A stretch of 64,000 nucleotides of DNA from Mobula hypostoma (taxonomy: Eukaryota): positions 76,076,001 to 76,140,000 of the forward strand of contig NC_086108.1 in assembly GCF_963921235.1 (NCBI RefSeq). Reading direction: 5' to 3'. Positions 55 to 64,000 of this stretch are shown in pieces. The number at the start of each line of letters is the position of its first letter. The first letter of the stretch is position 1. A program made the position numbers and the translations under genes. Under the pieces are notes generated by a model. It was not told the origin of the DNA. It made no database searches and saw nothing but the letters and a program-made list of their open reading frames with translations.

Positions 55-235
55 GAGGATACTGGAAACTTGAAATAAAAACAAATCGCTGTAAACACCC
101 AAAGGAACAGGCGGCATCCAGTGGAAAAGAAACAGAGTAGAGGTTTCAGGATCATTCATTTGATGAATGGTCTTAAACTGGAAATATTAACTCTTTTCTG
201 TTTCCACTGACAGGGCCTGAACTGTTAGTTTCCCG
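55..235. repeat. Old, degraded Penelope-terminal-repeat-derived palindromic repeat
   Basis: Imperfect inverted arms (cagtggaaaagaaacagag / ctcttttctgtttccactg) around a decayed TTGATGA...GGAAA core; loosely resembles the short repeats at 12947 and 60731. Confidence 0.35.
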
Positions 236-12946: not shown

Positions 12947-13117
12947 TCACAAACAAGAGAAAATCTGTAGATGCTGGAAATCCAGGCAACACACCCAAAA
13001 TGCTAGAGGAATCAGCAGGCCAGGTAGCATCTATGGAAAAGAGTACAGTTGACGTTTCAGGCCAAGGCACTTCAGCAGACCCTTCCTGAGTTCTTCAGCA
13101 TTTTGTATGTGTGTTAC
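12947..13117 (-). mobile_element. Older Penelope-terminal-repeat-derived short repeat with partial inverted arm
   Basis: Similar to 23741-23950; minus strand has a decayed core CTGCTGA..GGCCTGAAACGTCAAC. Confidence 0.65.
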
Positions 13118-14740: not shown

Positions 14741-14750
14741 GTCTTTCAGT

Positions 14751-21000: not shown

Positions 21001-21131
21001 TTGCAGAGCAGTGGTGGGGGAAGGGGAGACGGGAGTCACAACAGCAGCACATGAAGACCTGGCCTGGAGTTCAAGGCTGGAGTCGCAGTTGGTGGTTGCG
21101 CAATCACTTTGAATGTCTCCATGGTCGTTGC
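18039..21131 (-). mobile_element. Penelope-like element, 5'-truncated and mutated
   Basis: 12-bp TSD TGGAGTTTTTAA (18027-18038, 21132-21143); RT (KGVAMGTRMGPSYA, RYIDN) and GIY-YIG split by a stop and frameshifts; internal duplications. Confidence 0.93.
18101..18138 (-). ncRNA. Hammerhead motif variant, probably impaired
   Basis: GAAACATC replaces GAAACGTC, which breaks the ACGT palindrome of stem III. Confidence 0.6.
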
Positions 21132-23740: not shown

Positions 23741-23950
23741 AAAAACGTAAACACAAGGAATTCTGCAGATGCTGAAAATTCAAGCAACACACATCAAAGT
23801 TGCTGGTGAACGCAGCAGGCCAGGCAGCATCTCTGGGAAGAGGTACAAGAGGTCCTGACGAAGGGTCTCGGCCTGAAACGTCGACTCTACCTCTTCCTAG
23901 AGATGCTGCCTGGCCTGCTGCGTTCACCAGCAACTTTGATGTGTGTTGCT
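23741..23950 (+). mobile_element. 210-bp Penelope-derived inverted-repeat mini-insertion with central hammerhead
   Basis: 63-bp arms at 23783-23845 and 23888-23950; 14-bp TSD GGACACCT(A/G)TATTT (23727-23740, 23951-23964). Confidence 0.9.
23851..23886 (+). ncRNA. Minimal hammerhead ribozyme motif at the hairpin tip
   Basis: GGTC-CTGACGA-AGGGTCTCGGCCT-GAAA-CG-TC-GACT. Confidence 0.78.
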
Positions 23951-25450
23951 GGACACCTGTATTTGTAACTTCGAGGAATAAAGTTCCAACCTATTCAACC
24001 TTACTCTGCAACTCAGGTCCTCAAGCCCCGGTACCATCCCTGCAAAATTTCCTTGTAGCCTTTCAACCTTACTGATGTCTATCCTGCAGGTAGGTGACCA
24101 GAACTGCACACATTACTCCAAATTTGACATTACCTTTACATTATAAAACTGTAACATAACATCCCAACTCCTGTATTCAATTATGAAGGCCAGTGTGTCA
24201 AAAGCTCTTTTTAATAACCTTGTCTACCTGTTACACCACTTTTAAGGGATTATGGATTTGTATCCCTAGATCCCTGTTCTACCACTCTCCACAGCACTGT
24301 CTATGCCTATCTGATTTTTCCAGTCTCTAAATAGATTAAAATTGTCCATGATAATCACAGCGCTCTTTTAACCAGCTGCAATTGTTTACTCTTTTATACT
24401 CTGTTCAAATGTATGGTCACAGATAAGAGGCCTGTATGCTGTTCCCACAAGTGACTTCTTACATCTATTTTGTCTTAACTCCATCCGAATTGCTTCTGCA
24501 TCCTAATTTCCAAATTTAGGACATCCCATGTTGGTTACCATTAACTATGATGCTTTCAGTAGCCTTCAATATTTGGATTCCATTCGATGACATCTTGCAG
24601 CCATATGTTTATAATGGTTTCAAGTCATAATTAGTTATTAAATCATACAGTTATTCACAATTAATCCACTTTATTTCAGATTCTTTGTCCATTCAATGCA
24701 GTGCAGAGCTTTTAATCTTATTCTTTTTTTCTGTATCCTTTAGCCTTATCTTCTGCTGTGATGTTAGATTCGTATTCCACATCCCTTTCACAGTATGTCA
24801 TTATCAAAATTTATCTCCATATCTCCATATGAAGAAATGCAGGGAGCTATCCCTGATATCCAAAATATATTCAAATATATTTATCCCTCAATCCAACACA
24901 GGACAAAATTACTGGATTACATTTTGTGAGGAAATGTCAGCATTTGATAAATAAATTAGTTAATTAAAGTTCAGAATGTTGAATGTTTCTGAATATTTCT
25001 GAAATGCTTTATATTTGAAAAATGTCATTGTTACTAACTGAAGATATCTGGCTTTTGCGGATGTCTGAGTCTTTTCAGCAGCTTGGTCATAGAGGCTTTT
25101 TCTTGGCTTCCCTATGTGATGGGATTCATGTGGTGGAATTGGTGTGTCTCTGTGGAATTTGGGGCTGAGATTATCCTACTACTTTACAGTTGTGGGGAGG
25201 GGAATACCAAAAAGAAGCAAAATTAGCCCAGCTCATTGTCTTGTTTGGGAATTTATTTATATGCTGATTGATTAGCATTTTTCACATTGTTGTGGGGGGT
25301 GGGGAGAGAGTGCAGTGTAAAAAGTTGTCAAGTGCTTTCACACATTCTGAAGTGGTGAATGCAGATATACAATTGCAAATCTGCAATTCAAATTGTATGG
25401 TCAATTAAGATAATTAAGTGATAGAATTTTTGCTCCTAACATGAAACTGA

Positions 25451-31139: not shown

Positions 31140-31280
31140 ACCTTTGTATTTGGAGTCTGACTCCTGATCCTTTTTTTCTCCGGTCCTGCTGAAGGAACTC
31201 AGTCTGAAATGGGGACTGTACTCTTTTCCATGGATGCTGCCTGGCCTACTGTGTTCTTCCAGCATTTTGTGTGTGTTGCT
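31140..31280 (+). mobile_element. Older Penelope terminal-repeat fragment with decayed hammerhead
   Basis: GTC-CTGCTGA-AGGAACTCAGTCT-GAAA-TGGG-GAC followed by the shared end ...cagcattttgtgtgtgttgct. Confidence 0.65.
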
Positions 31281-41128: not shown

Positions 41129-41853
41129 CCGTAAATTAGTCAGCGGTGCATAAGGAGAAGTTTGGGAAGGTAATTCAGGAGGGAGAGGCTGACATCACAG
41201 TTGGAAGAGTCCGTTCAATGATCAGAAAACGTACCGTGCTCCTCATCAACCTACTGTACTCCCCTCCATGCAATACAGCACTTCTCATTAGCCTGCTGGC
41301 CTCCCGTCTGCAATCCAGTGCTCACCAATTATCAGCCGCCACTCCTATCTCGCATCAAAAACTGAGAATGGACTCAAGCAAATAACCACGGTCCTAGTGA
41401 GGGGGACTAGTGAGAGAGGCCACCAAGAGACTTGTGACAACTCTGGAGGAGTTGCAAGCTTCAGTGGCTGAGATGGGAAAGATTAGTCATACAGCAAAAT
41501 ACAGGGAAATCCTGGAGGAAAGCCAGGTCATGGCATAAAGACAAAGCTTAAAAACAGGAATGGCTTAAAAACAACAGAATTAATGTCTTGGAGTGGCCAA
41601 GTCAGGGTCCAGGCCTCAATCCAATTGAGAATTTGTGGCTGGACTTGAAAAGGGCTGTTCACTCTTCCCATGCAATCTGACAAAGCTTGAGCAGTTTTGT
41701 AAAGAAGAATGGGGAAAAATTGCAGTGTCTAGATATGCAAAGCTGATAGAGACCTATCCTCACAGTCTCAAGGCTGTAATTGCTGCCAAGGGTGCACCTA
41801 CTAAATACTGACTTGAAGGGGGTGAATACTTGTGCAGTCAATTATTATGTGAT

Positions 41854-42140
41854 TATAGCGATGTGCTACACACAGTGTTAGAATAACCACATAGAGTCGG
41901 TGAGTTAGAGTTGCGATGAAAGAGATTTATTCAAACTTCGTGGCCCGCTTTAAAGCTTTCCCGTTCCCGCCCTCCCTGGGCGGGACTACTGTGGGGAATG
42001 CATATTCCCAGACACTTCCTGCGCGCGGGATTTTCCCCCTGCTGGTGAAGATGGCCTGGTGCCCTTTTTGCTGCCGGTCCTCTGCCTGCGTGCGCTGTTT
42101 CGTGAGCCGGTTCGTGGGTGCCAGAAAGTGGGTCGCCACA
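41854..42140 (-). repeat. Gypsy 3' LTR (287 bp)
   Basis: Direct repeat of 45923-46210; I count 11 substitutions and 1 indel. Confidence 0.95.
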
Positions 42141-42149
42141 TAACCCCCC

Positions 42150-45100
42150 CCCCAGAACCGGCGATACCTCCCCCAATGTCCACAGTCTGGATCGGCCTCT
42201 GTTTGGGAGGTCTGCCCCTGCGCCGCGGTGCCTGAGCCTAGACCGGTTGCGCCAAGTCCACATGGGCCGGTTTGAGTCGGTCCACCGTGAAAACCTCCTC
42301 TCTCCCCCCAATGTCCAGCACGAACGTGGACCCGTTGTTCCTGATCACCTTAAACGGCCCCTCTTTAGGGCCGCTGTAGCGGTGCCCGGTGTCCGCCCCG
42401 TCGTACAAAAAGAAACTTACAGTTCTGCAGGTCTTTGGGTATGCAGGTCGGGCTCTGTCCGTGCTGTGAAGTGGGTATGGGGGCCAGGTTACCGAGCCTC
42501 TCCCGTAGTCTGTCCAGGACTGCTGTGGGTTCTTCCTCTTGCCCCCTTGGGGCTGGTATGAACTCTCCTGGGACGACCAGGGGCGCGCCGTACACCAACT
42601 CAGCCGACGAGGTGTGTAGATCCTCTTTGGGCGCCGTGCGGATTCCGAGCAGGACCCAGGGAAGTTCGTCCGCCCAGTTAGGCCCCTCCAGGCGGGCCAT
42701 GAGAGCCGATTTCAGGTGACGGTGGAAGCGCTCCACTAGTCCGTTCGACTGTGGGTGGTAGGCAGTTGTGTGGTGTAGCTGTGTTCCTAAAAGTCTGGCC
42801 ATAGCCGACCACAGGCTGGAGGTGAACTGGGCGCCCCTGTCGGAGGTAATGTGGGCCGGTACCCCAAAGTGTGCTACCCAGGTTGCGATCAGTGCTCGGG
42901 CGCAGGATTCGGAGGTGGTGTCGCTGAGCGGGACTGCCTCTGGCCATCTGGTGAACCGGTCTATCATAGTTAGGAGGTACCGCGCTCCTCGTGACACTGG
43001 CAGGGGCCCCACGATATCCACATGGATGTGGTCGAACCTCCGGCGGGTGGGTTCGAACCGCTGCACCTTGGCCGTTTAGCACTACATACACGTTTTGGCC
43101 CATTCACTGACCTGTTTACGAAGTCCATGCCACACGAACCTGTTGGAGACCAGCCGGACAGTTGTCCTGATGGAGGGGTGCGCTAAGTTGTGAATGGATT
43201 CGAACACCTGCCGGCGCCAGGCTGCTGGGACGACGGGGCGGGGTTGGCCGGTAGCTACGTCACACAGTAGGGTCCTCTCACCTGGGCCTACGGGGAGGTC
43301 TTGGAGCTGCAAACCGGAGACTGCAGTCCTGTAGCTGGGGATCTCAGCGTCTGCCTGCTGTGCCTCTGCCAGCGCTGCATAGTCCACCCCCTGGGACAGG
43401 GCCTGTATGGTAGGTCTGGAAAGTGCGTCTGCCACGACATTGTTCTTTCCAGAGACATGCCGGATGTCCGTCGTGTACTCGGAGATGTAGGACAGATGTC
43501 GCTGCTGGCGGGACGACCAGGGGTCGGACACCTTAGTGAACGCAAAGGTAAGCAGTTTGTGGTCTGTGAACGCGGTGAAGGGCCTACCTTCTAAGAAGTA
43601 CCTGAAATGCCGGATTGCCAGGTATAGTGCCAATAGCTCCCGGTTGAAAGCACTGTATTTGAGTTCGGGTGGTCGTAGGTGTTTGCTGAAGAACGCCAGG
43701 GGTTGCCAGCGACCCTCGATGAGTTGTTCCAGCACTCCACCGACTGCTGTGTTGGATGCGTCCACCGTGAGGGCAGTAGGAACATCCGTTCTGGGGTGCA
43801 CTAGCATCGCGGCGTTTGCCAAGGCTTCTTTGGTTTTAACGAAAGCGGTTGTGGCCTCTTCGTTCCAGGTACTGTCCTTGCCCTTACCCGACATTAGAGT
43901 GAACAAGGGGCGCATGGTTCGGGCTGCTGAGGGGAGGAAACGGTGGTAGAAATTCACCATACCCACGAATTCCAGCAAGCCTTTGATTGTGTTGGGTCGG
44001 GGGAAGTGGCGGACCGTGTCTACCTTGGCGGGCAGCGGGGTTGCCCCGTCTTTAGTAATCCTGTGGCCCAGGAAGTCGATGGTGTCGAGTCCGAACTGGC
44101 ATTTGGCTGGATTGATTGTAAGGCCGAATTCACTCAGGCGGGAGTAGAGCTGGCGGAGGTGGGACAGATGCTCCTGCCGACTACTGCTGGCTATGAGGAT
44201 GTCGTCCAAATAGATGAATGCAAAGTCCAGGTCGCGTCCCACCGCGTCCATTAGCCGCTGGAAAGTCTGTGCGGCATTCTTTAGACCAAACGGCATTCGG
44301 AGGAATTCGAAAAGTCCGAACGGGGTGATAAGTGCTGTTTTGGGGATGTCGTCCGGATGTACAGGGATTTGATGGCATCCCCGGACGAGGTCTACCTTGG
44401 AAAAGATCCTTGCGCCGTGTAGGTTTGCTGCGAAGTCTTGAATGTGCGGCACAGGGTAGCGGTCTGGCGTTGTAGCCTCGTTCAGTCTGCGGTAGTCACC
44501 GCATGGTCTCCAGCCCCCCGTTGCCTTGGGCACCATGTGAAGGGGGGAGGCCCATGGGCTGTCAGACCGTCGTATGATCCCTAATTCCTCCATCTTCTTG
44601 AACTCCTCCTTCGCCAGCCGGAGCTTGTCCGGGGGAAGCCTTCGAGCACGGGCGTGGAGGGGTGGTCCCTGGGTCGGGATGTGGTGCTGTACTCTGTGTC
44701 TGGGCATGGCTGCCGTGAACTGCGGTGTCAGTACTGATGGGAAATCCGCCAGGACCCTGGTGAATTCATCGTCGGACAGCGTGATGGAGTCCAGGTGTGG
44801 GGCTGGCAACTGTGCTTCACCCATGGAGAACGTTTGAAAAGTCTTGGCGTGGACTAATCGCTTCCCTTGCAAGTCGACCAGCAGGCTGTGGGCTCGTAGA
44901 AAATCTGCCCCCAGCAGTGGTTGGGCCACGGCGGCCAGTGTGAAGTCCCACGTGAACCGGCTGGAGCTGAACTGTAGCTGCACCGTGCGGGTGCCGTAGG
45001 TTCGTATTGTGCTGCCATTAGCGGCCCTCAGGGTGGGTCCCAGTTCTCTGTTCCGGGTGTCGTAACTCGTTGGAGGTAAGACGTTGATCTCCACTCCGGT

Positions 45101-45205
45101 GTCGACCAAAAAGCGGCGTCCCGACTGCTTGTCCCAGACGTACAGGAGGCTGTCCTGATGGCCAGCCGCCGTAGCCATCAGCGGCGGCTGGCCCTGGCGT
45201 TTCCC
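42150..45205 (-). pseudogene. pol: Gypsy pol (protease, RT, RNase H, integrase), disrupted in the integrase
   Basis: FLVDTG, YLDD, VDAS, FTDHK, HVDIVGPLP, SDRG, VERFHR; two stops in the integrase zinc finger (~43076-43084) and a stop/frameshift at ~42365. Confidence 0.93.
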
Positions 45206-45882
45206 GGGAATTTGCAGGGCGGTCTGCAGCGGCGGGCCTCCGTGCCCCACTGCTGGTGGTAGAAACACCATTGTTCGTTGGGCTCCTCACTCCCGTCGCC
45301 GGGTTTTGTAGGCTCTGCTGCCGGGCCTGGTCTGGTCTGTCGTTGGGCACGTGGCTTGGTGATCTGTGCGACGGATGCCCCTCTCTCTTTCCTGGCATTC
45401 CACAGCACATCTGCTCGGGCCGCCACCTCCCGGGGGTTGCTGAAATCTGCGTCGGACAGCAGCAGGCATATGTCCTCGGGCAGTTGCTCTAGGAGCGCCT
45501 GCTCAAACATGAGGCAGGGTTTGTGTCCTTCAGCCAGGGCCAGCATCTCGTTCATTAATGCTGACGGCGGCCTGTCTCCCAAACCATCCAGGTGCATTAA
45601 ACGGTGTGCTCGTTCGCGCCGTGAGAGTCCGAAAGTCCTTATGAGCAGGGCTTTGAATGCTGTGTATTTGCCGTCCTCCGGGGGCGACTGTATAAACTCC
45701 TCAACTTGTGCAGCAGTCTCCTGGTCGAGGGAGCTCAGCATGTAGTAGTAGCGAGTGGACTCCGAGGTTATCTGCCGAATGTGGAATTGTGCTTCTGCTT
45801 GTTTGAACCATAAATGGGGTTGCAGCGTCCAGAAGCTTGGCAGTTTTAACGAAACGGCGTGAACAGATGCAGCGTCGGTCAT
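45178..45882 (-). CDS. gag: Gypsy gag, 234 aa, open
   Basis: [28 protein letters not shown]-terminal [19 protein letters not shown] zinc-knuckle-like motif. Confidence 0.88.
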
Positions 45883-45906
45883 CTCTGGTCCAAATATCGT
45901 TTGGGC

Positions 45907-45920
45907 CGTCGGGGTCACCA
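45907..45920 (-). promoter_or_regulatory. Primer-binding site, tRNA-Trp type
   Basis: TGGTGACCCCGACG starts 2 nt inside the 5' LTR boundary and is complementary to the tRNA-Trp 3' end (...CGUCGGGGUCACCA). Confidence 0.85.
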
Positions 45921-45922
45921 AT

Positions 45923-46210
45923 TGTAGCGATGTGCTACACACAGCGTTAGAATAACCACACGGAGTCGGTGAGTTAGAGTTGCGATGAAAAGAGATGTAT
46001 TCAAACTTCGCGGCCCGCTTTAAAGCCTTCCCGTTCCCGCCCTCCCTGGGCGGGACTACTGTGGGGAATGCATATTCCCAGACCCTTTCTGCGCGCGGGA
46101 TTTTCCCCCTGCTGGTGAAGATGGCCTGGTGCCCTTTTTGCTGCCGGCCCTCTGCCTGCGCGCGCTGTTTCGTGAGCCGGTTCGTGGGTGCCAGAAAGTG
46201 GGTCGCCACA
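45923..46210 (-). repeat. Gypsy 5' LTR (288 bp)
   Basis: TG...CA termini; adjacent to the PBS. Confidence 0.95.
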
Positions 46211-46780
46211 TGATTTATATTTGTGATTGATTTATATCACTTTGTAGTGATCTGTTTCACTTTGACATGAAAGTGTCTTTTACTGTTGATCAGTGTCAAA
46301 AAAGCCAAATTAAATCTATTGTGATTCAATGTTGTAAAACAATAAAACATGAAAGCTTCCAAGGGGGTGAATACCTTTTATGGGCACTGTATATTCAGGC
46401 AATAGAGTGATTTGGATTCAGTACAGGCAGAAGAGATTTAGTTCAGTTTGCCATCATGTTCAACTGAACATAGGCTGAAGGTCTGTTACTGCACTGTACT
46501 GGTCTAAGCTTAAGTAAAGTTAGCATTTTAGATACAAACTTAAGTTAATAGGGGAAAGTTAGTTAGGATTCTCCCTAGTGCATCCCCAGATTTTAGTACA
46601 GACTATTTGAATATACTTGATTTTACATTATATCTTAAAACTATTCTCCTTTTTGAGTGTTTTTCCTTGTGACTTTTAGTCAATTTTTCTTTTCATCGAA
46701 ATTTGGCTTGGATTTTGAGTATGCAAAAATAAGCTATTTTATTTCCAGTTAAGTACTCTTGTCCTCATTTTCTTTTTCAG

Positions 46781-46884
46781 TTTCTTCCTTGCATTCAATA
46801 TTTTGGTGGTGAAAGGTGAAGAATACTTTAAAAATCTAGGGAGTCAAGCCCCATTTGTGGAGAACGAAACAGTTTGCATTTCAG
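46781..46884 (+). other. DMAP1: Candidate 104-nt non-coding 5'-UTR exon of DMAP1
   Basis: Strong acceptor ctcattttctttttcag|, donor CAG|GTCAGT, no ATG inside, lies in non-repeat-looking sequence. Confidence 0.4.
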
Positions 46885-48796
46885 GTCAGTATTCTTTCAT
46901 CAGTTGGAGAGCATTTTAGATGCACCAGCAGCGTTCTGTTGTGGGGAAGAGTGAGGAGAGTGAACAGAACCTTGGACTAAAAGTTAGCTTTTAGGCTGGA
47001 GTATAAACTTGGAAGGACATTAATTGATGGTTAGGAAGGGCATCTGGAGATCAGAGAAGGTAGATTAATATTAACATGGTGTAACAATAATTCTGTTTCT
47101 GTTCCCATGGATGTGGCCTGATCAGCTGAGTATTTCCAGCATTTTCTGTTTTTAAATTACTTCGGCATTATTTAGGTGTTGGCGAGGTGCTAGAGCTAGG
47201 AACTTGGATGAGTAACTTAGTTACAGAAGAGTTCTCCCAGATTGAAGGTAAACAGACTATCCAAGTAATGCCCAAGAATTAGCATTCTGAGACCAGCAAG
47301 GTTGTATGAGGGATACTATCTCTTATGTACCTTTGACTGCCACTAAAATTGATCTGAAGTTGAAAGGAATAAATGAAGAAAGACAGGAGGTGTGGGTGGA
47401 TCCTGTATTGATTGCAGGTGAAAAGGCTGAGGATTTGAAAAGGAATTTCCTGAGCATTGAGTGGGTGATGTGCAGACCAGAGTCAGGGAACAAATAGTTG
47501 TGGGAAAATTTAGTTGGAAGAGACTATGATCAGATGGAGTGACAGCAAAAGGTACTCAAATACCAGAGTGAGAATTTTGAACTTGAGACAATGCATGATT
47601 GGCTGTCAGTGTGGATGAGCAAAGAAAGATGTATTAAGTATTTAATTTAATTTTGTGGTAGGCTGTAGAATTCTGAAACAGCTGATTATAAAATGTGGAG
47701 CATGAGAGAGATTTGTGAGAATTAAATCTTCAGTGTAAATGGATTAACACATTGAAGGAGACAGATGTTAGAAATGTCATCTGGATTTATTTTGAATGCT
47801 AAGAATATATCTTAAAACAGATAGTTCAACCTTGCAAAAGAATAAAATTTGTGACAACAAATGTATGCTTCTGCCAGTGTCCAGTGAAATAGGGTAAGGT
47901 TTAGAATAGTGAAATTCAAATATTTGTTAGTACTTGAATTTCGATCTAGTGTCGCCACCTCCAACGGGATCCCACCACTAAGCACATCTTTCCCTCCCCC
48001 CCTCTCTCTGCATTCCGCAGGGATCGCTCCCTACACAACTCCCTTGTCCATTCGTCCCCCCCATCCCTCCCCACTGATCTCCCTCCTGGCACTTATCCGT
48101 GTAAGCGGAACAAGTGCTACACATGCCCTTACACTTCCTCCCTTACCACCATTCAGGGCCCCAAACAGTCCTTCCAGGTGAGGCATCACTTCACCTGTGA
48201 GTCGACTGGGATGATATACTGCGTCCGGTGCTTCCGATGTGGCCTTTTATATATTGGTGAGACCCGACGCAGACTGGGAGACCGCTTTGCTGAACATCTA
48301 CGCTCTGTCCGCCAGAGAAAGCAGGATCTCCCAGTGGCCACACATTTTAATTCCACATCCCATTCCCATTCTGACATGTCTATCCACGGCCTCCTCTACT
48401 GTAAAGATGAAGCCACACTCAGGTTGGAGGAACAACACCTTATATTCCGTCTGGGTAGCCTCCAACCTGATGGCATGAACATTGACTTCTCTAACTTCCG
48501 CTAGGCCCCACCTCCCCCTCGTACCCCATCTGTTACTCTTTTTAATGCACACATTCTTTCTCTCACTCTCCTTTTTCTCCCTCTGTCCCTCTGAATATAC
48601 CTCTTGCCCATCCTCTGGGTCACCCCCCCCCTGTCTTTCTTCCCGGACCTCCTGTGCCATGATCCTCTCATATCCCCTTTTGCCTATCACCTGTCCAGCT
48701 CTCGGCTCTATCCCTCCCCCTCCTGTCTTCTCCTATCATTTTGCATCTCCCCCTCCCCCTCCAGCTTTCAAATCCCTTACTCACTCTTCCTTCAGT

Positions 48797-48834
48797 TAGT
48801 CCTGACGAAGGGTCTCGGCCTGAAACGTCGACTG
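48797..48834 (+). ncRNA. Minimal type I hammerhead ribozyme, 5' repeat
   Basis: Stem I TAGTC/GACTG, core CTGACGA 48802-48808, stem II, GAAA 48822-48825, CG-TC; predicted cut after 48829. Confidence 0.82.
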
Positions 48835-48967
48835 CGCCTCTTCCTATAGATGCTGCTTGGCCTGCTGCGTTCACCAGCAACTTTGATGTGTGTTGCTTGA
48901 ATTTCCAGCATCTGCAGAATTCCTGTTGTTTGCGTTTAAATTCACTACTGCGAAGCCTCTTCCGGTG

Positions 48968-51900
48968 ATGCCTACACCGAAGAAGTTTAGATCCTCTCTT
49001 CGACGGGAGTTCAGTGAAACCATCTCTCACTGCTCCCCATCTGTAATTTCTTCGGCCCTTCAACTTTTCGACCACACTTTGACTCAAACTCGCTATCACA
49101 GCCATGTATCCTTTCTTGGAACGTGCCTCCGTCGCCAACTTACTCCAGTTGGCTTTAGGATTCGTTTCCAAGCCTCTCAATTTGGACCTTCTGAGGATCC
49201 CAGGTACTCACATTTTATTGACTCTGCCTCTCGCCGCTTCTCCTGTCAAGCTCTGAAGGCGACTCTCTCCGCCATGAGAAGGTACTTGGTGTCCCTATCC
49301 CAGACCCTTCCACACCTTCGGGACACTTTCTTCACCGTCTGTAATGGTCCTACCCGTTATTTCATCCTCCGTCAGATCCACGCCTGCAATCGCCATTTTT
49401 TTGACTTTGTCATGTTAGGCAAAGATCGCAAGATCTTACATCTACGGACTCCAGAGCCTGCCGGCCCCGACGCTAGCAGGCATGAACTTTCAATTGCGGC
49501 CACTGCCATTGATCTCGGCGGCTCCAACACCTCAGGACATATTCAAAACCCGGACTCCAGCAACGACCATGGACACATTCACAGCGATTACGCAACCACC
49601 AACTGCGACTCCAGCCTTGAACTCCGGGCCGGGTCTTTATGTGCTGCTGTTGTGACTCCCGTCTCCCCTTCCCCAACCACCACTCCGCAGCCCCGTCTAC
49701 CTCAGATCCCACCGTCAGCTCCTGGGCCCTCAGAGGCTCCATCTTCCTCTCACCCCAACCCTCCCCTCTCCATTGACACCCCCAGCCTCCCCCCTCCCCC
49801 CTCTGATCCCAGCTCTCATCCGTGCCGGGTCTTTACCATCCCCTCCGACCTTCAACTGTCGGAGGCAGAACGCTCTGTTCTCAGTAAGGGCCTCACGTTT
49901 GTCCCCCTTCGCCCACACCTCAGCGAGTTCCGTGTTCGCCACGATGCGGAACTTTTCTTCTGCCGTCTCCGTCTCCGAGCCTACTTCTTCGGCAAGGACT
50001 CTTCCACCCCCACCGATGACCCCTTCTCCCGTCTTCAACCCTCCTCTTCTTCATGGACACCCCGCTCTGGTCTTCTGCCTGCTCTGGATCTCTTTATTGC
50101 CAACTGCCGACGGGACATCAACCGTCTCGACTTCACCGCACCTTGTCCCCATTCCAACCTCACTCCTTCGGAACGCTCTGCTCTCCACTCCCTCCGCACT
50201 AATCCTAACATTATTATTAAACCCGCCGATAAGGGGGGTGCTGTTGTAGTCTGGCGTACTGACCTCTACCTTGCCGAGGCACAGCGACAACTCGCGGATA
50301 CCTCCTCTTATTTACCCCTCGATCGTGACCCCACTAAGGAGCACCAGGCCATTGTCTCCCACACTATCAACGACTTTATCCGCTCAGGGGATCGCCCATC
50401 CACTGCTACCAACCTTATAGTTCCCACACCCCGCACTTCCCGTTTCTATCTCCTACCCAAGATCCACAAACCTGTCTGTCCTGGCCGACCCATTGTCTCA
50501 GCTTGCTCCTGCCCCACCGAACTCGTTTCTGCATACCTCGACACTGTTTTATCACCCCTTGTTCAATCCCTTCCGACCTATGTTCGTGATACTTCTCACG
50601 CTCTTAAACTTTTCGATGATTTTAAGTTCCCTGGCCCCCACCGCTTTATTTTCACCATGGATGTCCAGTCCCTATATACTTCCATCCCCCATCGGGAAGG
50701 TCTCAAAGCTCTACGCTTCTTTTTGGATTCCAGACCTAATCAGTTCCCCTCTACCACCACTCTGCTCCGTCTAGCAGAATTAGTCCTTACTCTTAATAAT
50801 TTCTCCTTTTGCTCCTCCCATTTCCTCCAAACTAAAGGTGTAGCTATGGGCACCCGTATGGGTCCTAGCTATGCCTGCCTTTTTGTTGGGTTTGTGGAAC
50901 AATCTATGTTCCGTGCCTATTCTGGTATCTGTCCCCCACTTTTCCTTCGCTACATCGACGACTGCATTGGCGCTGCTTCCTGCACGCATGCAGAACTCGT
51001 TGACTTTATTAACTTTGCCTCCAACTTTCACCCTGCCCTCAAGTTTACCTGGTCCATTTCCGACACCTCCCTCCCCTTTCTAGATCTTTCTGTCTCTGTC
51101 TCTGGAGACAGCTTATCCACTGATGTCTACTATAAGCCTACTGACTCTCACAGCTATCTTGACTATTCCTCTTCTCACCCTGTCTCTTGCAAAAACGCCA
51201 TCCCCTTCTCGCAATTCCTCCGTCTCCGTTGCATCTGCTCTCAGGATGAGGCTTTTCATTCTAGGACGAGGGAGATGTCTTCATTTTTTAAAGAAAGGGG
51301 CTTCCCTTCCTCCACTATCAACTCTGCTCTTAAACGCATCTCCCTCATTTCACGTACATCTGCTCTCACTCCATCCTCCCACCACCCCACTAGGAATAGG
51401 GTTCCCCTGGTCCTCACCTACCACCCCACCAGCCTCGGGGTCCAACATATTATTCTCCGTAACTTCCGCCACCTCCAACGGGATCCCACCACTAAGCACA
51501 TCTTTCCCTCCCCCCCCCTCTGCATTCCGCAGGGATCGCTCCCTACACAACTCCCTTGTCCATTCATCCCCCCCATCCCTCCCCACTGATCTCCCTCCTG
51601 GCACTTATCCGTGTAAGCGGAACAAGTGCTACACATGCCCTTACACTTCCTCCCTTACCACCATTCAGGGCCCCAAACAGTCCTTCCAGGTGAGGCATCA
51701 CTTCACCTGTGAGTCGACTGGGATGATATACTGCGTCCGGTGCTCCCGATGTGGCCTTTTATATATTGGTGAGACCCGACGCAGACTGGGAGACCGCTTT
51801 GCTGAACATCTACGCTCTGTCCGCCAGAGAAAGCAGGATCTCCCAGTGGCCACACATTTTAATTCCACATCCCATTCCCATTCTGACATGTCTATCCACG

Positions 51901-52016
51901 GCCTCCTCTACTGTAAAGATGAAGCCACACTCAGGTTGGAGGAACAACACCTTATATTCCGTCTGGGTAGCCTCCAACCTGATGGCATGAACATTGACTT
52001 CTCTAACTTCCGCTAG
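48968..52016 (+). pseudogene. Penelope RT/GIY-YIG polyprotein (~1016 aa if one 2-nt deletion is restored)
   Basis: ATG at 48968; KPADKGG, LPKIHK, GRPIVS, MDVQSLYTSI, GVAMGTRMGP, RYIDD, IYCVRC..YIGET; single frameshift in the C/CT run at ~51506-51521. Confidence 0.92.
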
Positions 52017-52311
52017 GCCCCACCTCCCCCTCGTACCCCATCTGTTACTCATTTTTATGCACACATTCTTTCTCTCACTCTCCTTTTTCTCCCTCTGTCC
52101 CTCTGAATATACCTCTTGCCCATCCTCTGGGTCACCCCCCTCCCCCCGTCTCTCTTCCCGGACCTCCTGTCCCATGATCCTCTCGTATCCCCTTTTGCCT
52201 ATCACCTGTCCAGCTCTCGGCTCTATCCCTCCCCCTCCTGTCTTCTCCTATCATTTTGCATCTCCCCCTCCCCCTCCAGCTTTCAAATCCCTTACTCACT
52301 CTTCCTTCAGT

Positions 52312-52349
52312 TAGTCCTGACGAAGGGTCTCGGCCTGAAACGTCGACTG
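52312..52349 (+). ncRNA. Minimal type I hammerhead ribozyme, 3' repeat
   Basis: Identical to 48797-48834; predicted cut after 52344. Confidence 0.82.
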
Positions 52350-52449
52350 CGCCTCTTCCTATAGATGCTGCTTGGCCTGCTGCGTTCACCAGCAACTTTG
52401 ATGTGTGTTGCTAGTAATTTTTAATGGTTGTTGATTAGTTTTGTTATTT

Positions 52450-53130
52450 TTCAAACGTAAGGGGAAAGTATACAGTTAATGCAGGACCTTTGACAGCATT
52501 GCTGTACAGAAAGATCTTGGAGTCTTAAGTCCCTAGCTCCCTGGAAGTGGCCACACAAGTAGATGGGATGGTAAACAAGGTGTATGGCAGGCTTTCTTTC
52601 ATCGGTTGGGGCGCCGAGTATAAGAGGAAGGAAATCATGCTTACTTATTTTGTTGTTGAGATACAGCACGGAATGGGCTCTTCCAGCTCTTTGAACTGCG
52701 CAACCCAGCAGGTCCCAATTTAACCCTAGCTTAATCACTGGGCAGTTGCAGCTATATAAAACTTTGTTTAGGCTGCACTTTGAGCATTGTGTGCAATTCT
52801 GCTTGCCCCATTACAGGGAGGATGTGGAAGGTTTAGAAAGAGAGTAAGAAAGATTTACCAGGATGCTTCCTGGATTAGCTGGCACACAGTAATGTTAATT
52901 ACTCAGACGGGTACTTAAAGTGACATGAGGAAGGTTAAAAGAGATGCATGAGACAGGTTTTTTATACTGAGAGTGGTGGGTGCTTGGAATGAGCTGCCAA
53001 GGGTAATGTCTGTGCAGTGAATAGTGAATGTGGATCATGTACAAGCAGAATAGATGTGGTTTAAATTGACATCATGTTCAGTGCAGACATTGTGTTCTGA
53101 AAGGCCTGTTCCTGTTCTCTACTGTTTTTT
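52450..53130 (+). mobile_element. CR1 3' fragment, degraded
   Basis: Remnants resembling LEHCVQF..PHYREDV and FILRVVGAWNELP. Confidence 0.7.
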
Positions 53131-53180
53131 TCGTTCTATCTTCTCAAATTTCTTCTCGCTATTTCTACAGGTACACAAAA

Positions 53181-53279
53181 ATGGCTACAGGAGCAGATGT
53201 TCGTGATATCCTGGAGCTGGGTGGTGGTGATTCGGAAAACACACCAATCAGTAAAAAAGATATTATCAACTCAGATAAG
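53181..53279 (+). CDS. DMAP1: DNA methyltransferase 1-associated protein 1, first coding exon (exon 53171-53279)
   Basis: MATGADVRDILELGGGDSENTPISKKDIINSDK matches the vertebrate DMAP1 N-terminus; acceptor ctacag| at 53170, donor AAG|GT at 53280, phase 0. Confidence 0.96.
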
Positions 53280-54234
53280 GTACAACTGGCTTAGTTTAGC
53301 ATTTAATACTTGTACTATTGATGTTAGTTATCCATATTATCAGTTGCTGATTGCCCAATGACTGACATTCATTTTGATTACATCTTCACTAAGTGTAGAT
53401 AGCAAGGAGCCAAAATACAAAATGTAAAAATGAGAGGAAGCTGCCAAGAAAATTTGCACTTTTAGCTCCTTTACGATTGAAACAGCCATGTAAGGTTCTG
53501 TAATTTAATCGCTATAGATTGAAGAGTTTCTCAATATTTTTCAAGATCACCGCACTCCCAAGGGAAGCTTGTTGGAGATAAAGGCACAATATTGCAGTGA
53601 GGAGCATCAAGAAAAGTTGAGAAGCAATGTTGCAGCCTTATTGATACTGGTCTTTTCTGAGATTGGCTCTTTTGAAGATCCTTTGATTAGGATCATGGTA
53701 TACATTCTATTGAAATGCAAATATAAAATGGGAAAGAATTACTGCTGACAGTCACTTTGGAGGAGGTTATATTACAGTCCCGAGTCGATGGAGTCAAATG
53801 CTCTAAAGAGAAAGTGAACTGGCTGGTACTGCTCTTTGAATCTTTATTTGGAATTATAGTGGTGAAGCTCATGTACACTATTTAAAAGGATAGAATCCAT
53901 TCTATCCTTATCAGCTACTGGGATGAGACAGCTGGGAGATGAAGATTTTCTATGTGGCAGATAATTCTTTTGTTACTACAGTTATCTTGCCTCCATTCTT
54001 GAGGTTGACTGCGATTATGCCGTTTTTCAGGTGTGCGTGATGAGATAAGATTTGTGACTGAAGTTTTTTTTCCTTCAATCTTTAGAATTTCAGTGATGTT
54101 ACAGATTGCCTCATGGTCCTTGAGGAATCCTTGATCGTTTTTGAATCTCAGTGCAGTAAATTTCATCACCACTGTTTACTTTTGCCAAGACTCCTAAGAT
54201 AGGGTTTGGGCAAACTTGAATTGTTGTGGAGGTG

Positions 54235-54520
54235 AGGGGAGATCTGAGAGGTTTACAGGATTGAGAGGCGTAGATAGAATAGACAGCCAGAGTCTTTTAT
54301 CCCAAGTTTGAAATGTCAAATACGAGGGCATGTGTTTAAGGTAAGAGATATGCGGGGCAAGTTTTTGATACAGAGTGGTGGGCTCCTGAAATGAGCTGCC
54401 TGGGGTGGTAGTAGAAGCAAATATGACAGATTCAAAAAGGCTCTTAGATCGGCATATCAGTATGTAGAAAATGGAAGGATGTGGGCAGAAGGGTTTAGTT
54501 GGACATTTGCTTAATTAAAT
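54235..54520 (+). mobile_element. CR1 3' fragment, degraded
   Basis: Remnant QRVVGS*NELPGVVVEA. Confidence 0.6.
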
Positions 54521-55589
54521 TAGGTTTCTGTGAAGGAGTTCTGTTCATATAGAACGTAGAGTAGTTCTATATGCCCGTATAGAGCTGTTCTGCATTCTTT
54601 ATGAAAAATGGTCTTTGTTTCCCATGATCTTGCCTGTTTGGCCAGAGATGGCTTTGATAGCACGGAAGAACCAGTGCATGTCATGGCTGTCAGTGAGTCA
54701 CTGAGCCTCCTGCGTTTTCTCCATCTAGGTTAACAATTTTAACTCCTGTGTTTTCAGCTGGACCTCTGTGTTTAGGTGCAAAAGTTCTTTCTTTTCCCTT
54801 GAAGACAAGTGAAGCTTTCCTTATGTTTGTGGTTAATAAGCTCTTTGATTTACTATTTACATCAAAGCTTAGTAGGAAAACCAAATATATTGACTTCAAG
54901 GAAACACATAATTAGTGGGCATTCTGGTGTCTGGGCTGGGTCTGAAAAACAATTACCATTGTGGTTTTTACAGCTTTGACATAGATCTTCTGGAATAATA
55001 CTTGTAATTGAAGCTGCTGTTTTGGGCCATATTGATGGTCACAGTCGGGCAGATTAGACAGCATTCAGTTCAACAGTCACCAATATTTGTTAAGATCAGG
55101 ATAATGCAAACATTTTTATGATCCTTCACTTGAACAATGACAAAGTCTAGCAGGCGCCAGAATTTAAACTGGGGTTGTTACCCTGTGGTTTTGTGCTGGC
55201 CCATTGCTAAGTCAGGGTTTGCTATGGTTAATTTATCATAAGGATTCCACTGGAGAAAGCCTTCCCTATTTCTTTTTGTCAGAGGGTTGCCTTTGAGGCA
55301 TTACAGCCTCTCAGGAGGATCAGTTTGTGTGCCTTTTGGAGGAGGATTTAGATTTTCCACCCAAGTTCAAAGTCCTCCTGAGGCTTCCTGAGTTGGCTCA
55401 TTGAACTGATGATTGTAGCTGTTGTTTCTGTTTTAGACCAAGCTGAAGGCATCTGGTATTTCTAAAGAAGAATCCTCTGAGGTGCTGGAGTAGCTAATTA
55501 TTGATAGCAAAGCTCACTTTGTGAAGACAGATTTTCATTTCCAGAATGTGTATCTGACTCCTTTGACTCTAGTTTCTCAGTCAGTGTGA

Positions 55590-57047: not shown

Positions 57048-60000
57048 CTTTTTTCTTTCTTTTCTTTCTTAATCTTTTTATTAGTTTTCAATTTCATAAA
57101 CATAATAACAATAGTGATACAAAGAGATTGGAATTACATTATTGGTAATAAACATATACAAGAGAAACTACAAATTGTACAAGTGTAATAGACTTTCAAA
57201 TTCATAATATAATTAATCACGAAGAGAAAAGAAATAAAAAAAGGATATCACAAAGAAAAACCCCAAAAAACAAAAACAAAACTTTAAAAAAAGCTAAATT
57301 ACTAAACCCCCCCAAAAAAACCCAAACAGAACAAAACAGGGCTGAACCAATATATTAGATGGAATACGTTCATTAATGTCGTCAACTCCGCTCCTCTATT
57401 CATATATTCTAATTTAATAAAAAGGATTCAGAAAAGGTCAAATTACATCATATGAAAATGTTGAATAAATGGCTTCCAAGTCTCTTCAAATTTAACTGAA
57501 GGATCAAAAATGACACTTCTGATTTTTTCTAAATTTAAACATGATATAGTTTGGGAAAACCATTGAAATGTAGTAGGGGGATTGGTCTCTTTCCAATTCA
57601 ATAAAATGGGTCTCTTGGCCATTAATGTAACAAATGCGATTATCCGACAAGCTGAAGAGGATAAAGCACTATGTTCCATCATTGGCAAACCAAAAATAGG
57701 ATGGGGTTGTAAATCAAAGCGCTAAACTGTTGAAATGATATCAAAGATATCTTTCTAAAATTTTTCCAAAAGAGTGCAGGACCAGAACATACGAATCAAA
57801 GAAGCCACCTCAGAGTGACATCTATCACAAATAGGATTTGTATGGGAGTAAAAACGCGCTAGTTTATCTTTAGGTATGTGGGCCCTATGTACTACCTTAA
57901 ATTGTATTAGCATATGTTTAGCACATATTAGATTATGAGAACACTCCTCGTTTATTGTCATTTAGAAATGCATGCATGCATTAAGAAATGATACAATGTT
58001 CCTTCAGAGTGATATCACAGAAAAACAGGACAAACCAAAGACTAACACCGACAGAACCACATAATTATAACATATAGTTACAGCAGTGCAAAACAATACC
58101 ATAATTTGATGAAGAGCAGACCATGGGCACGGTTAAAAAAAAAATCTCTAAGTCCCGGTCGACTCCCGAGTCCCTGATAGCAGGCGGCAAAAGGGAGAAA
58201 CTCCCTGCCATAAACCTCGAGGCACCGACAACTGCCGATGCATTGGAAGCACCCGACAACAGCCGACACTGAGTCCATCCATCCAAAAACTTCGAGCCTC
58301 CAACCAGCCCCTCTGATACAGCCTCCCGAGTGCCATCCTCTGCCGAGTGCCTTCTACCTCGCCCCGGCCGCCAAAACAAGCAAAACCAAGGATTCGGGGC
58401 TGTCTCCGGAGATTCCGGACCACACAGTAGCAGCAGCAGCGAAGTGGGCATTTCAGAAGTTTCTCCAGTTGTTCCTCCATACTCTCATGTCTGTCTCCAT
58501 CAAATCAGAATTGTGCACGGTACCCTAGCTGACAGATTACAGATATCATTCACCGGAGTGGCCGTGCACGCTGCGTCGCACCGCCATCTTCTCCTCCTCC
58601 AACATATAGAGGAAGAGCTAACTAATTGAAAAATTTTCTCCCATTTCTGTATAGGTAAGTGAAGTTGAAGTTCCCTTTCCCATTCATTTTTTATTTTATC
58701 AAATATATCTGGCTGTATTTTCATAATTATATCATAAATAGTTGCTATTAATCCCTTCTGATAAAGAAATAAACCTAAAATTTTTTTCATGATATCAGTT
58801 GAGTATGAAATCAGAAATGTTGGCAGCATGGTATTTAAAAAGTTTCTTATTTGTAAATATCTTAAAAAAAAAAGGGGGATCTGGGCAAGTTATATTTATT
58901 AGACAACTGTTCAAAAGACGTGAAACAGTTATTCAAAAATAAATCACGAAAACATGTTATACCTTTCATTTTCCATATCAAAAAGGCTTGATCCATAACA
59001 GAAGGTTGGAAAAAAAATTAGATATAATAGGGATAATATAAATTTGTTCTAACCAAAAAATTTACAAAAATGGAACCATATTCGTAACGTGTGTTTAATT
59101 ATTGGTTTAACCATTTGTTTATTCAATTTAGAAAACACAAAGGGGAGTGAAGATCCTAAAATAGAAACTAATGAAAACCCTTGTACAGAATAACTTTCGA
59201 GGTTTACCCATTGTGGACTTGGAATTATATCCCAATCTTGTGTCCAAAATACTAAATATCGGATATTAATTGCCCAGTAATAGAATCTTAAATTCGGTAA
59301 TGCTAAACCTCCATCTTTCTTGGACTTCTTTAAGTATTATTTACTTAACCTGGGATTTTTATTCTGCCATATGTAAGAGGAAATTTTAAAATCAATAGTA
59401 TCAAACAAAGATTTAGGAATAAAAATTGGTACCGATTGAAATAAATATAAAAATTTAGGTAGAATAATCATTTTAATAGCATTGATTCGGCCAATCAGTG
59501 ATAGAGACAATGGGGACCATTTAGTAAGCAATTGTTTAACCTGACTAATTAACGGTAAAAAATTGAGCTTGAATAAGTCCTTATCCCTCTTAGCAATTTT
59601 ATCCCCTAAATAAGTAAAATGGTCAGTAATCAATCTAAGTAGTAAACATCTATAAATGGGAGCCTGCATATTTAATGGAAAAAGTTCACTCTTGCTAAGA
59701 TTCAATTTGTAATCAGAAAAACTACTAAACTGAACAAGCAAAGATAATACTGCCGGAATGGATTTCTCAGGGTTAGAAATATATAATAGTAAATCATCTG
59801 CATATAGTGATAATTTATGCATCTCATTCCCACAGGTAATACTAAATATATTAGGAGAGTCACGAATGGCAATAGCTAACGGTTCCAGGGCAATATTGAA
59901 CAATAATGGGCTAAGAGGGCAACCCTGCCTAGTACCACAGAATAACTGAAAAAAGGGAGATCTTTGATTATTAGTAAAATCCAAAGCCAGAGGAGTAAGG

Positions 60001-60660
60001 TATATCAATTTAATCCAAGATATGAATATCAGACTAAAATTGAATTTCTCAAGTGTATTAAACAAATATGTCCATTCGACTCTATCAAAAGCTTTCTCAG
60101 CGTCCAATGAAATTATGCACTCTGGAGTTCTAGGTGAAAAAATATAAACAATATTCATTAATCTCCTAATATTAAAGAAGGAGTAACGATTTTTAATAAA
60201 TCCAGTTTGATCAACAGAAATAATTTGAGGCAATACATTCTCCAGTCTCATTGCCAATATTTTAGAAAAAATCTTAGAATCCACATTCAGCAAAGATATA
60301 GGCCTGTAAGATGCACACTCGGTAGGATCCTTATCTTTTTTAAGAATTAGGGAAATAGAAACTCGATAAAAAGATTGTGGTAATTTACCTATAGATACTG
60401 CATCCTTAAAAATTCTACAAACGTTTTTTACATAACCAAGGAGAAAGTATAGTAGAGAAGGATTTAAAAAATTCTACTGTATAACTGTCTGGACCAGGTG
60501 CTTTACCTGAATTTATCGAGGAAATAGCATTCTTTACTTCTTCTACCGTAATAGGTATGTCTAGTTTTAAATGTTCATTGGGTGGTAATTTTGGAATATT
60601 CAATTTCTTTAAAAATTCATGCATTATAGTGGAATCATCAGGAAATTCTGCTTGGTATAA
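57048..60660 (-). mobile_element. L1 LINE, 5'-truncated ORF2 with 3' UTR and A-rich tail
   Basis: GKAPGPD, SLDAEKAFDRV, GTRQGCPLSPLLF, YADD, C-terminal CDRC..MFWSC; T-rich end at ~57048-57080. Confidence 0.92.
57929..58601 (-). mobile_element. Unclassified non-autonomous retroelement inserted in L1
   Basis: 6-bp TSD ACATAT (57923-57928, 58602-58607); GC-rich; minus strand begins GGAGAAGATGGCGG and ends near AATAAA; no credible ORF. Confidence 0.65.
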
Positions 60661-63589: not shown

Positions 63590-63690
63590 CTGCCCTGAAG
63601 AAGGGTCTCGGCTCAAAACGTCGACTGTTTATTCATTTCCATAGGTGCTGTCTGATCTGCTGAGTTCCTCCAGCATTTTGTGTGTGTTGC
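63590..63690 (+). mobile_element. ~100-bp Penelope 3'-end insertion with mutated hammerhead core
   Basis: TSD (GC)AATAAATATT at 63578-63589 and 63689-63700; CTGAAGA-AGGGTCTCGGCTC-AAAA-CGTC-GAC (GAAA changed to AAAA). Confidence 0.75.
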
Positions 63691-64000
63691 AATAAATATT
63701 TGCTCTTTAGTATCAGCATTCTGTGGAGGATTATACCGTTGCTATAATACATAATACATAATTGTAATACATAATACAATTATGTATTATGTATTAATAG
63801 CATAATACATGCTATTATGTTCTTTTTCTGAACATAATAGCATGTTCAGAAAAAGAAGAAAACCAGATAAATCATCAATCAAGGCATTGAATTTGGAGAT
63901 GGCAGAGTAATTTGTAGGCCAGATGAACTTGTGACGTTCTTGTCTCAAACATGTGGGGATTGGTATCTAAATTGGCAGAGCTGTCCCACAGATGAATTAA

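What the first reader, a model, noticed from the sequence alone, without database searches (positions are those of the whole stretch)
47953..52412. Near-intact Penelope-like retroelement bracketed by two dimer-type hammerhead ribozymes, sense within the DMAP1 intron
Seen: each terminal repeat has UAGUC-CUGACGA-[stem II]-GAAA-CG-UC^GACUG. Stem III has no loop and is the palindrome ACGU, so it can only form between two copies. The predicted cuts (after 48829 and 52344) are 3515 nt apart and enclose the whole ORF. The DNA 3' end lies 68 nt beyond the cut site. Known: Penelope-like elements carry minimal hammerheads thought to act as dimers. Inference: host DMAP1 transcription could supply a tandem RNA whose two motifs pair and excise a unit-length RNA. 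If that RNA circularises, reverse transcription starting at +68 and running more than one round would explain both the fixed 3' end and the partial-tandem structure. Cleavage would also sever the DMAP1 pre-mRNA ~0.8 kb before its first coding exon.
Basis: partly seen in the sequence, partly recalled or inferred. Interest (0 to 1): 0.88.

Follow-up and report, generated by a model that had tools for sequence, protein, structure and literature searches.

The report
Penelope retroelement with paired hammerhead motifs
A young, frameshifted copy of a very abundant Penelope-type jumping gene, with the tiny self-cutting RNA motifs already known from this family, sits in an intron of the DMAP1 gene of a shark-like fish; it is real but ordinary, and the proposed RNA-circle mechanism is an existing, still unproven idea.

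Summary
A Penelope-like element (47953-52412) has 945-bp repeats, each with a minimal dimer-type hammerhead. The predicted cuts are 3515 nt apart. It lies sense in a DMAP1 5'UTR intron (46885-53170; spliced contig). One frameshift separates RT from GIY-YIG. The exact motif occurs 29,805 times in the genome.

The excision-and-circle model is the one Cervera and de la Pena proposed in 2014. The '+68 fixed end' is one of two ends (+68, +102), which is the known PLE tail; in an Anolis PLE it marks internal RT starts and needs no ribozyme in vitro.

Against cleavage: 1 of 100 copies starts at the cut site, the fold is unfavourable, the G10.1-C11.1 pair is G.U, and an older subfamily amplified with an A6C core. 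For one-template, more-than-unit copying: the two repeats of simple partial tandems agree at 61 of 62 diagnostic sites (background 54%). All 27 two-armed insertions carry exactly one long tail.

The scan noted related short copies in other shark-like genomes. Verdict: new member of a known kind; circle unproven; effect on DMAP1 unlikely.

The parts
47953..48897 (+). 5' pseudo-LTR: 5'-truncated partial copy of the unit (GIY-YIG coding end, C/T-rich UTR, hammerhead, +68 end)
   Evidence: 98.3% to the 3' repeat; same haplotype at 11 of 11 diagnostic sites
48780..48799 (+). 3'-splice-site-like motif (branch-like CTTAC/CTCAC, pyrimidine tract, CAG then TAG) ending in the 5' strand of hammerhead stem I; use not shown
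   Evidence: read from the sequence; a pyrimidine tract plus AG also precedes older relics; an intron end maps to helix I in Drosophila Penelope (PMC4209133)
48797..48834 (+). minimal type I hammerhead motif 1, predicted cut after 48829
48898..48931 (+). about 34-nt 'tail' between the two family 3' ends (+68 and about +102); present only at the internal junction of this copy
   Evidence: bimodal 3' ends; exactly one long end in 27 of 27 two-armed insertions
48968..51589 (+). ORF part 1 from the first ATG: N-terminal region, DKG motif, RT (YIDD); runs out of frame after the C-run near 51510-51520
   Evidence: RVT_1 E 9.6e-5, below cut-off; 1494 relatives; best 72% from the shark Chiloscyllium
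51520..52016 (+). ORF part 2, in another frame: CX4CXXC linker and GIY-YIG endonuclease with CCHH, stop at 52014-52016
   Evidence: (GIY-YIG E 2.3e-4, 21.8 bits against cut-off 22.6)
51467..52412 (+). 3' pseudo-LTR, ending at the short (+68) end
52312..52349 (+). minimal type I hammerhead motif 2, predicted cut after 52344
46781..46884 (+). DMAP1 non-coding exon upstream of the element (3' end shown; 5' end inferred from an acceptor motif)
   Evidence: loose end of a spliced contig matches once in the window
53171..53279 (+). DMAP1 first coding exon (ATG at 53182)
   Evidence: contigs of runs X2 and X3 match with 0 differences and stop at 53279; DMAP1 domains downstream

Best explanation
This is a recent, frameshifted insertion of a very abundant Neptune-type Penelope-like element into the 6.3-kb 5'UTR intron of DMAP1. 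Family mechanism (inferred, modelled on the Anolis PLE): the GIY-YIG/RT protein, probably as a dimer, nicks both target strands about 10-15 nt apart. It primes cDNA at two internal sites of its RNA, about +68 and +102 beyond the hammerhead cut position. Copying runs through the hammerhead without stopping at the cut, often ends over its 5' half, and sometimes runs more than one unit along the same template, which gives the pseudo-LTR. So the template is continuous across the cut site: uncut, or cut and precisely re-joined. The hammerhead is weak and needs a partner and protein help, so in the host pre-mRNA it rarely cuts, and DMAP1 is spliced across it. Shown: anatomy, copy number, two 3' ends, one long end per two-armed insertion, target duplications, the spliced host junction. 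Inferred: twin priming, weak activity, no effect on the host.
For: Bimodal 3' ends, 68 and 63 of 147. Of 27 two-armed insertions, 22 pair long with short and 5 pair long with a shorter end; none has two long ends or none long; 25 of 27 share 10-18 letters between their ends. The Anolis PLE cuts and extends both strands, starts RT at two internal sites that bound the tail, is modelled as a dimer, and inserts with dead hammerheads (PMC11167929). 5' ends: 1 of 100 at the cut, 9 at -20..-28, 11 at -29..-37 (by eye); 23 of 100 at -29..-37 against about 10 at -38..-68 (by eye). The double-hammerhead fold is -11.5 kcal/mol against -22 for two monomers and -30.3 for the best dimer; stems I and II have probability near 0 in context. 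G.U at 10.1-11.1 in 29,805 copies against G-C in 4,395. 11,196 copies have a non-A at core position 6, with C in 75 of 100 listed; A6C cripples cleavage in Mg2+ (PMC7151607). Spliced DMAP1 contigs cross the intron.
Against: The core boxes, ACGU palindrome and stem I are the commonest bases in both young and older copies, so something maintains them. Repeats of simple partial tandems agree at 61 of 62 diagnostic sites, more than inverted arms (203 of 230; 9 of 10 against 6 of 19 pairs fully concordant, Fisher p 0.005), which a circle predicts. Folding energies ignore tertiary and protein effects. The RNA contigs cannot show ends or levels, and their animals may lack this insertion. No clear target duplication at this copy.
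Confidence: 0.6

Rival explanations
1. Circle model (first reader; Cervera and de la Pena 2014): two hammerheads pair, excise a unit RNA, it is ligated, and RT starting at +68 or +102 rolls more than once round it. This could hold for the family whether or not this copy takes part.
For: Pseudo-LTR concordance 61 of 62 against 54% background. No common 5' limit: extra lengths run from about 50 nt to over one unit among 14 of 61 loci with a unit-to-unit junction. Copies cross the cut site intact. Pure linear copying would lose length every generation (inference). The Anolis hammerhead does cleave when protein is present.
Against: No RNA ends at the cut in Anolis data, and mutants insert. A6C subfamily. 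In the three-copy arrays L099 and L100 the 3'-most repeat differs from the two upstream ones, in L099 by a linked five-site block, which one circle cannot give. Hammerhead-less Naiad PLEs form the same structures (PMC8557442).
Confidence: 0.35
2. Uncut multi-unit transcripts are the templates, and tandem arrays are renewed in DNA by unequal exchange between pseudo-LTRs or by RT template jumps; the hammerhead has no role in copying.
For: The units of L099 and L100 differ by only 0.1-0.2%, share 10-11 rare variants each and share the same shortened frame, and their 3'-most repeat is the odd one, as unequal exchange predicts. 44 haplotypes in 61 loci show much mixing.
Against: It does not explain why the motif is kept. 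Arrays of two or more units are few (3 or 4 of 61 RT-selected loci).
Confidence: 0.3
3. Locus-specific reading: DMAP1 transcription drives paired cleavage of this copy, severs the pre-mRNA and lowers or regulates DMAP1.
For: Sense orientation and two motifs in one intron are confirmed.
Against: Unfavourable fold, G.U at the base of stem II, partners 3.5 kb apart. Spliced contigs exist. With about 30,000 exact motifs split evenly between strands, many must lie sense in introns (inference). Published minimal PLE hammerheads cleave poorly even as dimers.
Confidence: 0.08
4. The region matters mainly as a splice acceptor and RT signal: upstream exons (the element's own, or the DMAP1 exon ending at 46884) splice to the AG in stem I and give a translatable RNA, and the motif is kept for that overlap.
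For: Acceptor-like sequence at 48780-48799, also before older relics; the intron end maps to helix I in Drosophila Penelope; 5' ends are enriched at this edge.
Against: No spliced read was examined. Short copies show no common upstream exon in the listings. Palindromic microhomology in fold-back joints can also place ends there.
Confidence: 0.2

Closest known systems
Minimal hammerheads (min-HHR) in pseudo-LTRs of metazoan PLEs: Xena, Poseidon, Neptune of fishes (Cervera and de la Pena 2014, PMC4209133; parts 1-2 of 4 read)
   Same: Type I, no loop 3, palindromic 15.2-16.2, extra base after A9, 5-bp helix I, one per repeat about 3 kb apart, most copies truncated; same proposed dimer, circle and more-than-unit RT model
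   Different: G10.1-C11.1 is G.U in the dominant young subfamily; helix II is only 4 bp. I saw no cartilaginous fish named in the parts read; supplements were not seen and may list one.
PAc, Poseidon element of Anolis carolinensis (Frangieh et al. 2024, PMC11167929; parts 1-2 of 4 read)
   Same: RT plus GIY-YIG ORF, tandem pLTRs, hammerhead, two 3' ends that bound a tail downstream of the cut site, both target strands used
   Different: There the ORF starts inside the hammerhead; here the first ATG lies 139 nt past the cut. This element has the CX2-5CXXC linker that Poseidon lacks. No activity was tested here.
Neptune clade EN+ PLEs (Craig et al. 2021, PMC8557442; passages read)
   Same: Zn-finger-like linker, DKG, CCHH GIY-YIG, partial tandem, adjacent inverted truncated copy, 30-40-bp tail often at one end only
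   Different: No tree was built, so Neptune versus Nematis is not settled. Here the one-end rule is strict (27 of 27) and target duplications are plain.
Non-LTR retrozymes (PMC7229834, passages; bioRxiv 10.64898/2026.07.22.740005, parts 1-2 of 5)
   Same: Type I hammerheads in tandem; circles proposed as RT templates, probably using PLE proteins
   Different: Those are small non-coding repeats with canonical, efficient hammerheads and demonstrated circles; this is a coding 3.5-kb unit with a minimal motif

Membership tests
EN+ Penelope-like element | Single ORF with RT and C-terminal GIY-YIG | tested here: met
   Both domains present, each below its Pfam cut-off; split by one frameshift in this copy; 6 of 16 whole units fetched have one frame of 1035 aa or more
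EN+ Penelope-like element | DKG motif upstream of the RT core | tested here: met
   KPADKGG in the translation
EN+ Penelope-like element | Partial tandem forming pseudo-LTRs | tested here: met
   14 of 61 loci have a unit-to-unit junction
EN+ Penelope-like element | Optional 30-40-bp tail and adjacent inverted truncated copy | tested here: met
   Met for the family; this copy has the short end and no inverted arm
EN+ Penelope-like element | RT groups with PLE RTs in a phylogeny | not tested
   Only a similarity search; no named reference set
Neptune clade | CX2-5CXXC linker between RT and EN | tested here: met
   CKRNKCYTC; Nematis shares this linker
Neptune clade | Placement in the Neptune group by RT tree | not tested
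   No reference sequences at hand
minimal type I hammerhead (min-HHR) | CUGANGA and GAAA boxes, UH cleavage site, helix I of 4-5 bp | tested here: met
minimal type I hammerhead (min-HHR) | Palindromic helix III without loop | tested here: met
   ACGU; a nested double-hammerhead fold can be drawn
minimal type I hammerhead (min-HHR) | G10.1-C11.1 pair | tested here: not met
   G.U in this copy and 29,805 others; G-C in 4,395
minimal type I hammerhead (min-HHR) | Core better conserved than flanks across the family | tested here: inconclusive
   38 older relics: core 0.82, loop and N7 0.72, spacer 0.71, tail (used to select) 0.84; some rows truncated or misaligned; A6C subfamily
minimal type I hammerhead (min-HHR) | Match to an Rfam hammerhead model | tested here: not met
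   None at E up to 10 over 46000-55000
minimal type I hammerhead (min-HHR) | Self-cleavage as a dimer | not testable with these tools
   Needs an in vitro assay; only contigs, no raw reads, were available

The most novel reading that the evidence does not exclude
In this very young, very abundant family the two hammerheads really do excise and close a 3.5-kb unit RNA, also out of host introns such as DMAP1's. A dimeric RT then primes both target strands at two fixed sites (+68 and +102) and rolls round the circle. The copy population would be the first genomic record of a circular PLE intermediate: identical pseudo-LTRs from one RNA, more divergent inverted arms from a second RNA.
Probability: 0.2. 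Interest if true: 0.7.

Novelty: new member of a known kind. Interest (0 to 1): 0.27.

Why it matters
What PLE hammerheads do, and how pseudo-LTRs are regenerated, is still open. This locus adds no new principle, but its family is a good test bed. Copies differ from the majority by about 0.6-0.7% at non-CpG sites, at least 85,544 tail motifs exist, whole ORFs survive, and diagnostic variants allow a genome-wide test of whether both repeats come from one RNA. The strict one-long-end rule, if it holds genome-wide, is in vivo support for twin priming at the two RT starts seen in vitro. A natural A6C subfamily offers a control for whether cleavage is needed.

Tried and rejected
Rfam scan: no hammerhead match. 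DNA search of the own genome with the repeat end returned nothing because common words are skipped. No holder is on record as RNA; only contigs could be laid, so RNA ends, strand and level were not testable. The DNA run X19 gave no empty-site contig, so the age and polymorphism of the insertion stay open. PDB and Pfam searches with the two short DMAP1 exons found nothing; the gene name rests plus my recall of the DMAP1 N-terminus.

My first reading was that tandem repeats share private variants 20 times more than other loci. Rejected as stated: 33 of the 34 shared variants come from three multi-unit arrays (L099, L100, L102), which may be DNA-level duplications. Simple partial tandems share 1 in 3,689 sites and differ by 0.62%, like unrelated loci (0.58-0.60%).

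Cleavage as the source of short copies: rejected, 1 of 100 starts at the cut. Target duplication for this copy: none clear, at most 5 nt. No random genomic sample was obtained, so all loci are selected by motif or by RT. Lunse et al. 2016 was not held and is known to me only as cited in PMC6765202. Searches for Penelope + hammerhead + shark, Neptune + Penelope-like + cartilaginous and Penelope + twin priming + inverted listed no paper whose title or abstract start concerns this family; subscription papers and Repbase were not searched.
Full report
Observation. The two repeats run 47953-48897 and 51467-52412 and are 98.3% alike. The 38-nt motif occurs 29,805 times exactly in the 3.48-Gb genome, with 0 for the reversed control. 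Rfam has no hammerhead match here.

Protein. A 900-aa stop-free frame (48887-51589, first ATG 48968) carries DKG and RT motifs; a second frame ending at 52016 carries a CX4CXXC linker and a GIY-YIG domain. Both Pfam scores are below the curated cut-offs. The frames part in a C-run near 51510-51520, so this copy cannot make the full protein. Of 16 whole units fetched, 6 have one frame of 1035 aa or more. The best named relative is from the shark Chiloscyllium, 72% over the RT part, among 1494 hits from 7995 scored candidates; a cartilaginous-fish host is my inference. The linker marks Neptune or Nematis (PMC8557442, passages); no tree was built.

Host gene. Contigs of 2074 and 2080 nt from runs X2 and X3 match 53168-53279 with no differences and stop at the donor. 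The loose end of the X2 contig matches one place in the window, an exon ending at 46884. The element is therefore sense in a 6,286-nt intron (46885-53170), 827 nt from cut 2 to the coding exon. The SANT and DMAP1 domains occur only on this contig and strand, 10-46 kb past the window. The runs are only guessed to be RNA, but the join is a splice. Whether those animals carry the insertion is unknown.

3' ends. I fetched 60 of the 142 RT hits and used 30 motif loci plus the window. Of 183 distinct hits to the hammerhead region, 147 were at least 90% identical and away from locus edges (33 older and 3 at edges were set aside): 68 end at +60..75, 63 at +95..120, 8 run into the body, 8 end elsewhere. 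So +68 is one of two ends about 34 nt apart, which is the known PLE tail. Among 31 inverted-pair rows I dropped 4 that run into a body. Of the other 27, 22 pair a long with a short end and 5 pair a long with a still shorter end; none has two long ends or no long end, and 25 share 10-18 letters between their two ends, a target duplication. In the Anolis element both strands are cut and extended, RT starts at two internal sites that bound the tail, the protein is modelled as a dimer, hammerhead mutants insert normally, the hammerhead cleaves only with protein, and no RNA-seq ends were found at the cut (PMC11167929, parts 1-2). Twin priming, one strand at each site, is my inference. Single-arm copies mostly show duplications too; this copy shows none clearly.

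5' ends. In the first 100 of 85,544 matches to a tail motif, read by eye, 1 starts at the cut, 5 at +2..+18, 5 at -19..0, 9 at -20..-28 and 11 at -29..-37. In the first 100 of 40,391 matches to the hammerhead, 23 start at -29..-37, about 10 at -38..-68 and 67 run on. Both listings come from the start of one contig and under-count truncated copies by about a quarter. RT thus passes the cut site and drops off over the 5' half of the motif. This agrees with an uncut or precisely re-joined template and gives no trace of cleaved linear RNA. An acceptor-like sequence sits at the same edge; its use was not examined.

Is the ribozyme likely to work? The isolated motif folds as a rod in which the core pairs with the cleavage strand (-11.0 kcal/mol, z -1.2). 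The double-hammerhead fold scores -11.5 against -22 for two monomers and -30.3 for the best dimer, and stems I and II have probability near 0 in 130-260 nt of context; such models ignore tertiary contacts and protein. The conserved G10.1-C11.1 pair is G.U in 29,805 copies and G-C in 4,395. Among 45 older relics found by the tail alone I kept 38 with the motif region present: modal-base frequency was 0.82 in the core, 0.72 in loop and N7, 0.71 in the spacer, 0.84 in the tail used for selection, which is inconclusive. There are 11,196 copies with a non-A at core position 6, and 75 of 100 listed have C, 13 G and 12 T (by eye), so an older subfamily multiplied with A6C. That change cut the rate in Mg2+ strongly in two other hammerheads while sparing Mn2+ activity (PMC7151607, Results). 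Those copies could have been moved in trans.

Circle or line? Twenty diagnostic sites split the 61 loci into 44 haplotypes; unrelated loci agree at 54%. The two repeats of 10 simple partial tandems agree at 61 of 62 sites (this copy 11 of 11), inverted arms at 203 of 230 (19 pairs), multi-unit arrays at 73 of 81. Fully concordant pairs: 9 of 10 against 6 of 19 (p 0.005), but tandem pairs have fewer sites each and sites are linked, so this is a hint. It fits one RNA copied more than once round, by a circle or a template jump, and also homogeneous source arrays. Against a single circle: in L099 and L100 the 3'-most repeat differs from the two upstream ones, in L099 by a linked five-site block. 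These arrays share 10-11 rare variants and the same shortened frame, as DNA-level duplication would give.

Comparison. Minimal hammerheads in both pseudo-LTRs, dimer action, low activity, and the excision-circle-more-than-unit model are all in PMC4209133 (parts 1-2 of 4) and are repeated in PMC6765202 (passages). PMC8557442 notes that hammerhead-less Naiads make the same structures and that the tail is often at one end only. I also saw passages of PMC6155905, PMC7229834 and PMC8782182, and parts 1-2 of bioRxiv 10.64898/2026.07.22.740005; no supplements were read, and those of PMC4209133 may list shark or ray motifs. Two earlier scan notes report related short and fold-back copies in other shark-like genomes; none was near this place or matched by sequence.

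Verdict. Observation confirmed, interpretation partly supported. It is a new member of a known kind. The circle remains possible (about 0.35 for the family); cleavage that matters for DMAP1 is unlikely (about 0.08). Interest 0.27, mainly because the family's many young copies make the open question testable.

Noticed in passing
window 46879-46903 (- strand): An old antisense hammerhead-like relic (CTGATGA...GAAA) overlaps the end of the DMAP1 non-coding exon and supplies its splice donor at 46885: a possible exonised Penelope relic.
   Followed up: partly
window 250-405: Housekeeping-promoter-like motifs (ZNF143-, NRF1- and ETS-like, labels recalled) and a GTGAGT donor at 400; candidate DMAP1 exon 1. 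About 74 letters of the spliced contig remain unplaced and would fit; not shown.
   Followed up: no
window 13790-14742 (-), 18034-21137 (-), 23743-23953 (fold-back pair), 12944-13073 (-), 31182-31280 (+), 63594-63701 (+): Further copies and older relics of the same family in the window; the 23743-23953 pair has one long and one short end.
   Followed up: partly
window 41852-46211 (- strand): LTR retrotransposon with about 290-bp LTRs (95.9% alike), gag-like DUF7041 ORF and protease-RT-RNase H-integrase ORF, inserted in what looks like a Tc1/mariner remnant (label recalled).
   Followed up: no
genome-wide: Older subfamily with an A6C hammerhead core, roughly 8,000 or more copies by extrapolation from 75 of 100 listed; the same change is known as a Mn2+-preferring natural variant.
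   Followed up: partly
L099 249-8290 and L100 1691-9654: Arrays of more than two units whose 3'-most repeat differs from the two upstream ones; looks like unequal exchange between pseudo-LTRs.
   Followed up: partly
window 47910-47941: The left flank holds a 9-bp inverted repeat whose arm equals the first bases of the element's tail; chance or target preference.
   Followed up: no
window 4905-6210: About 1.3 kb of pure C/T simple repeat.
   Followed up: no
window 59337-60473 (- strand): LINE-type RT fragment in the intron after the first coding exon.
   Followed up: no
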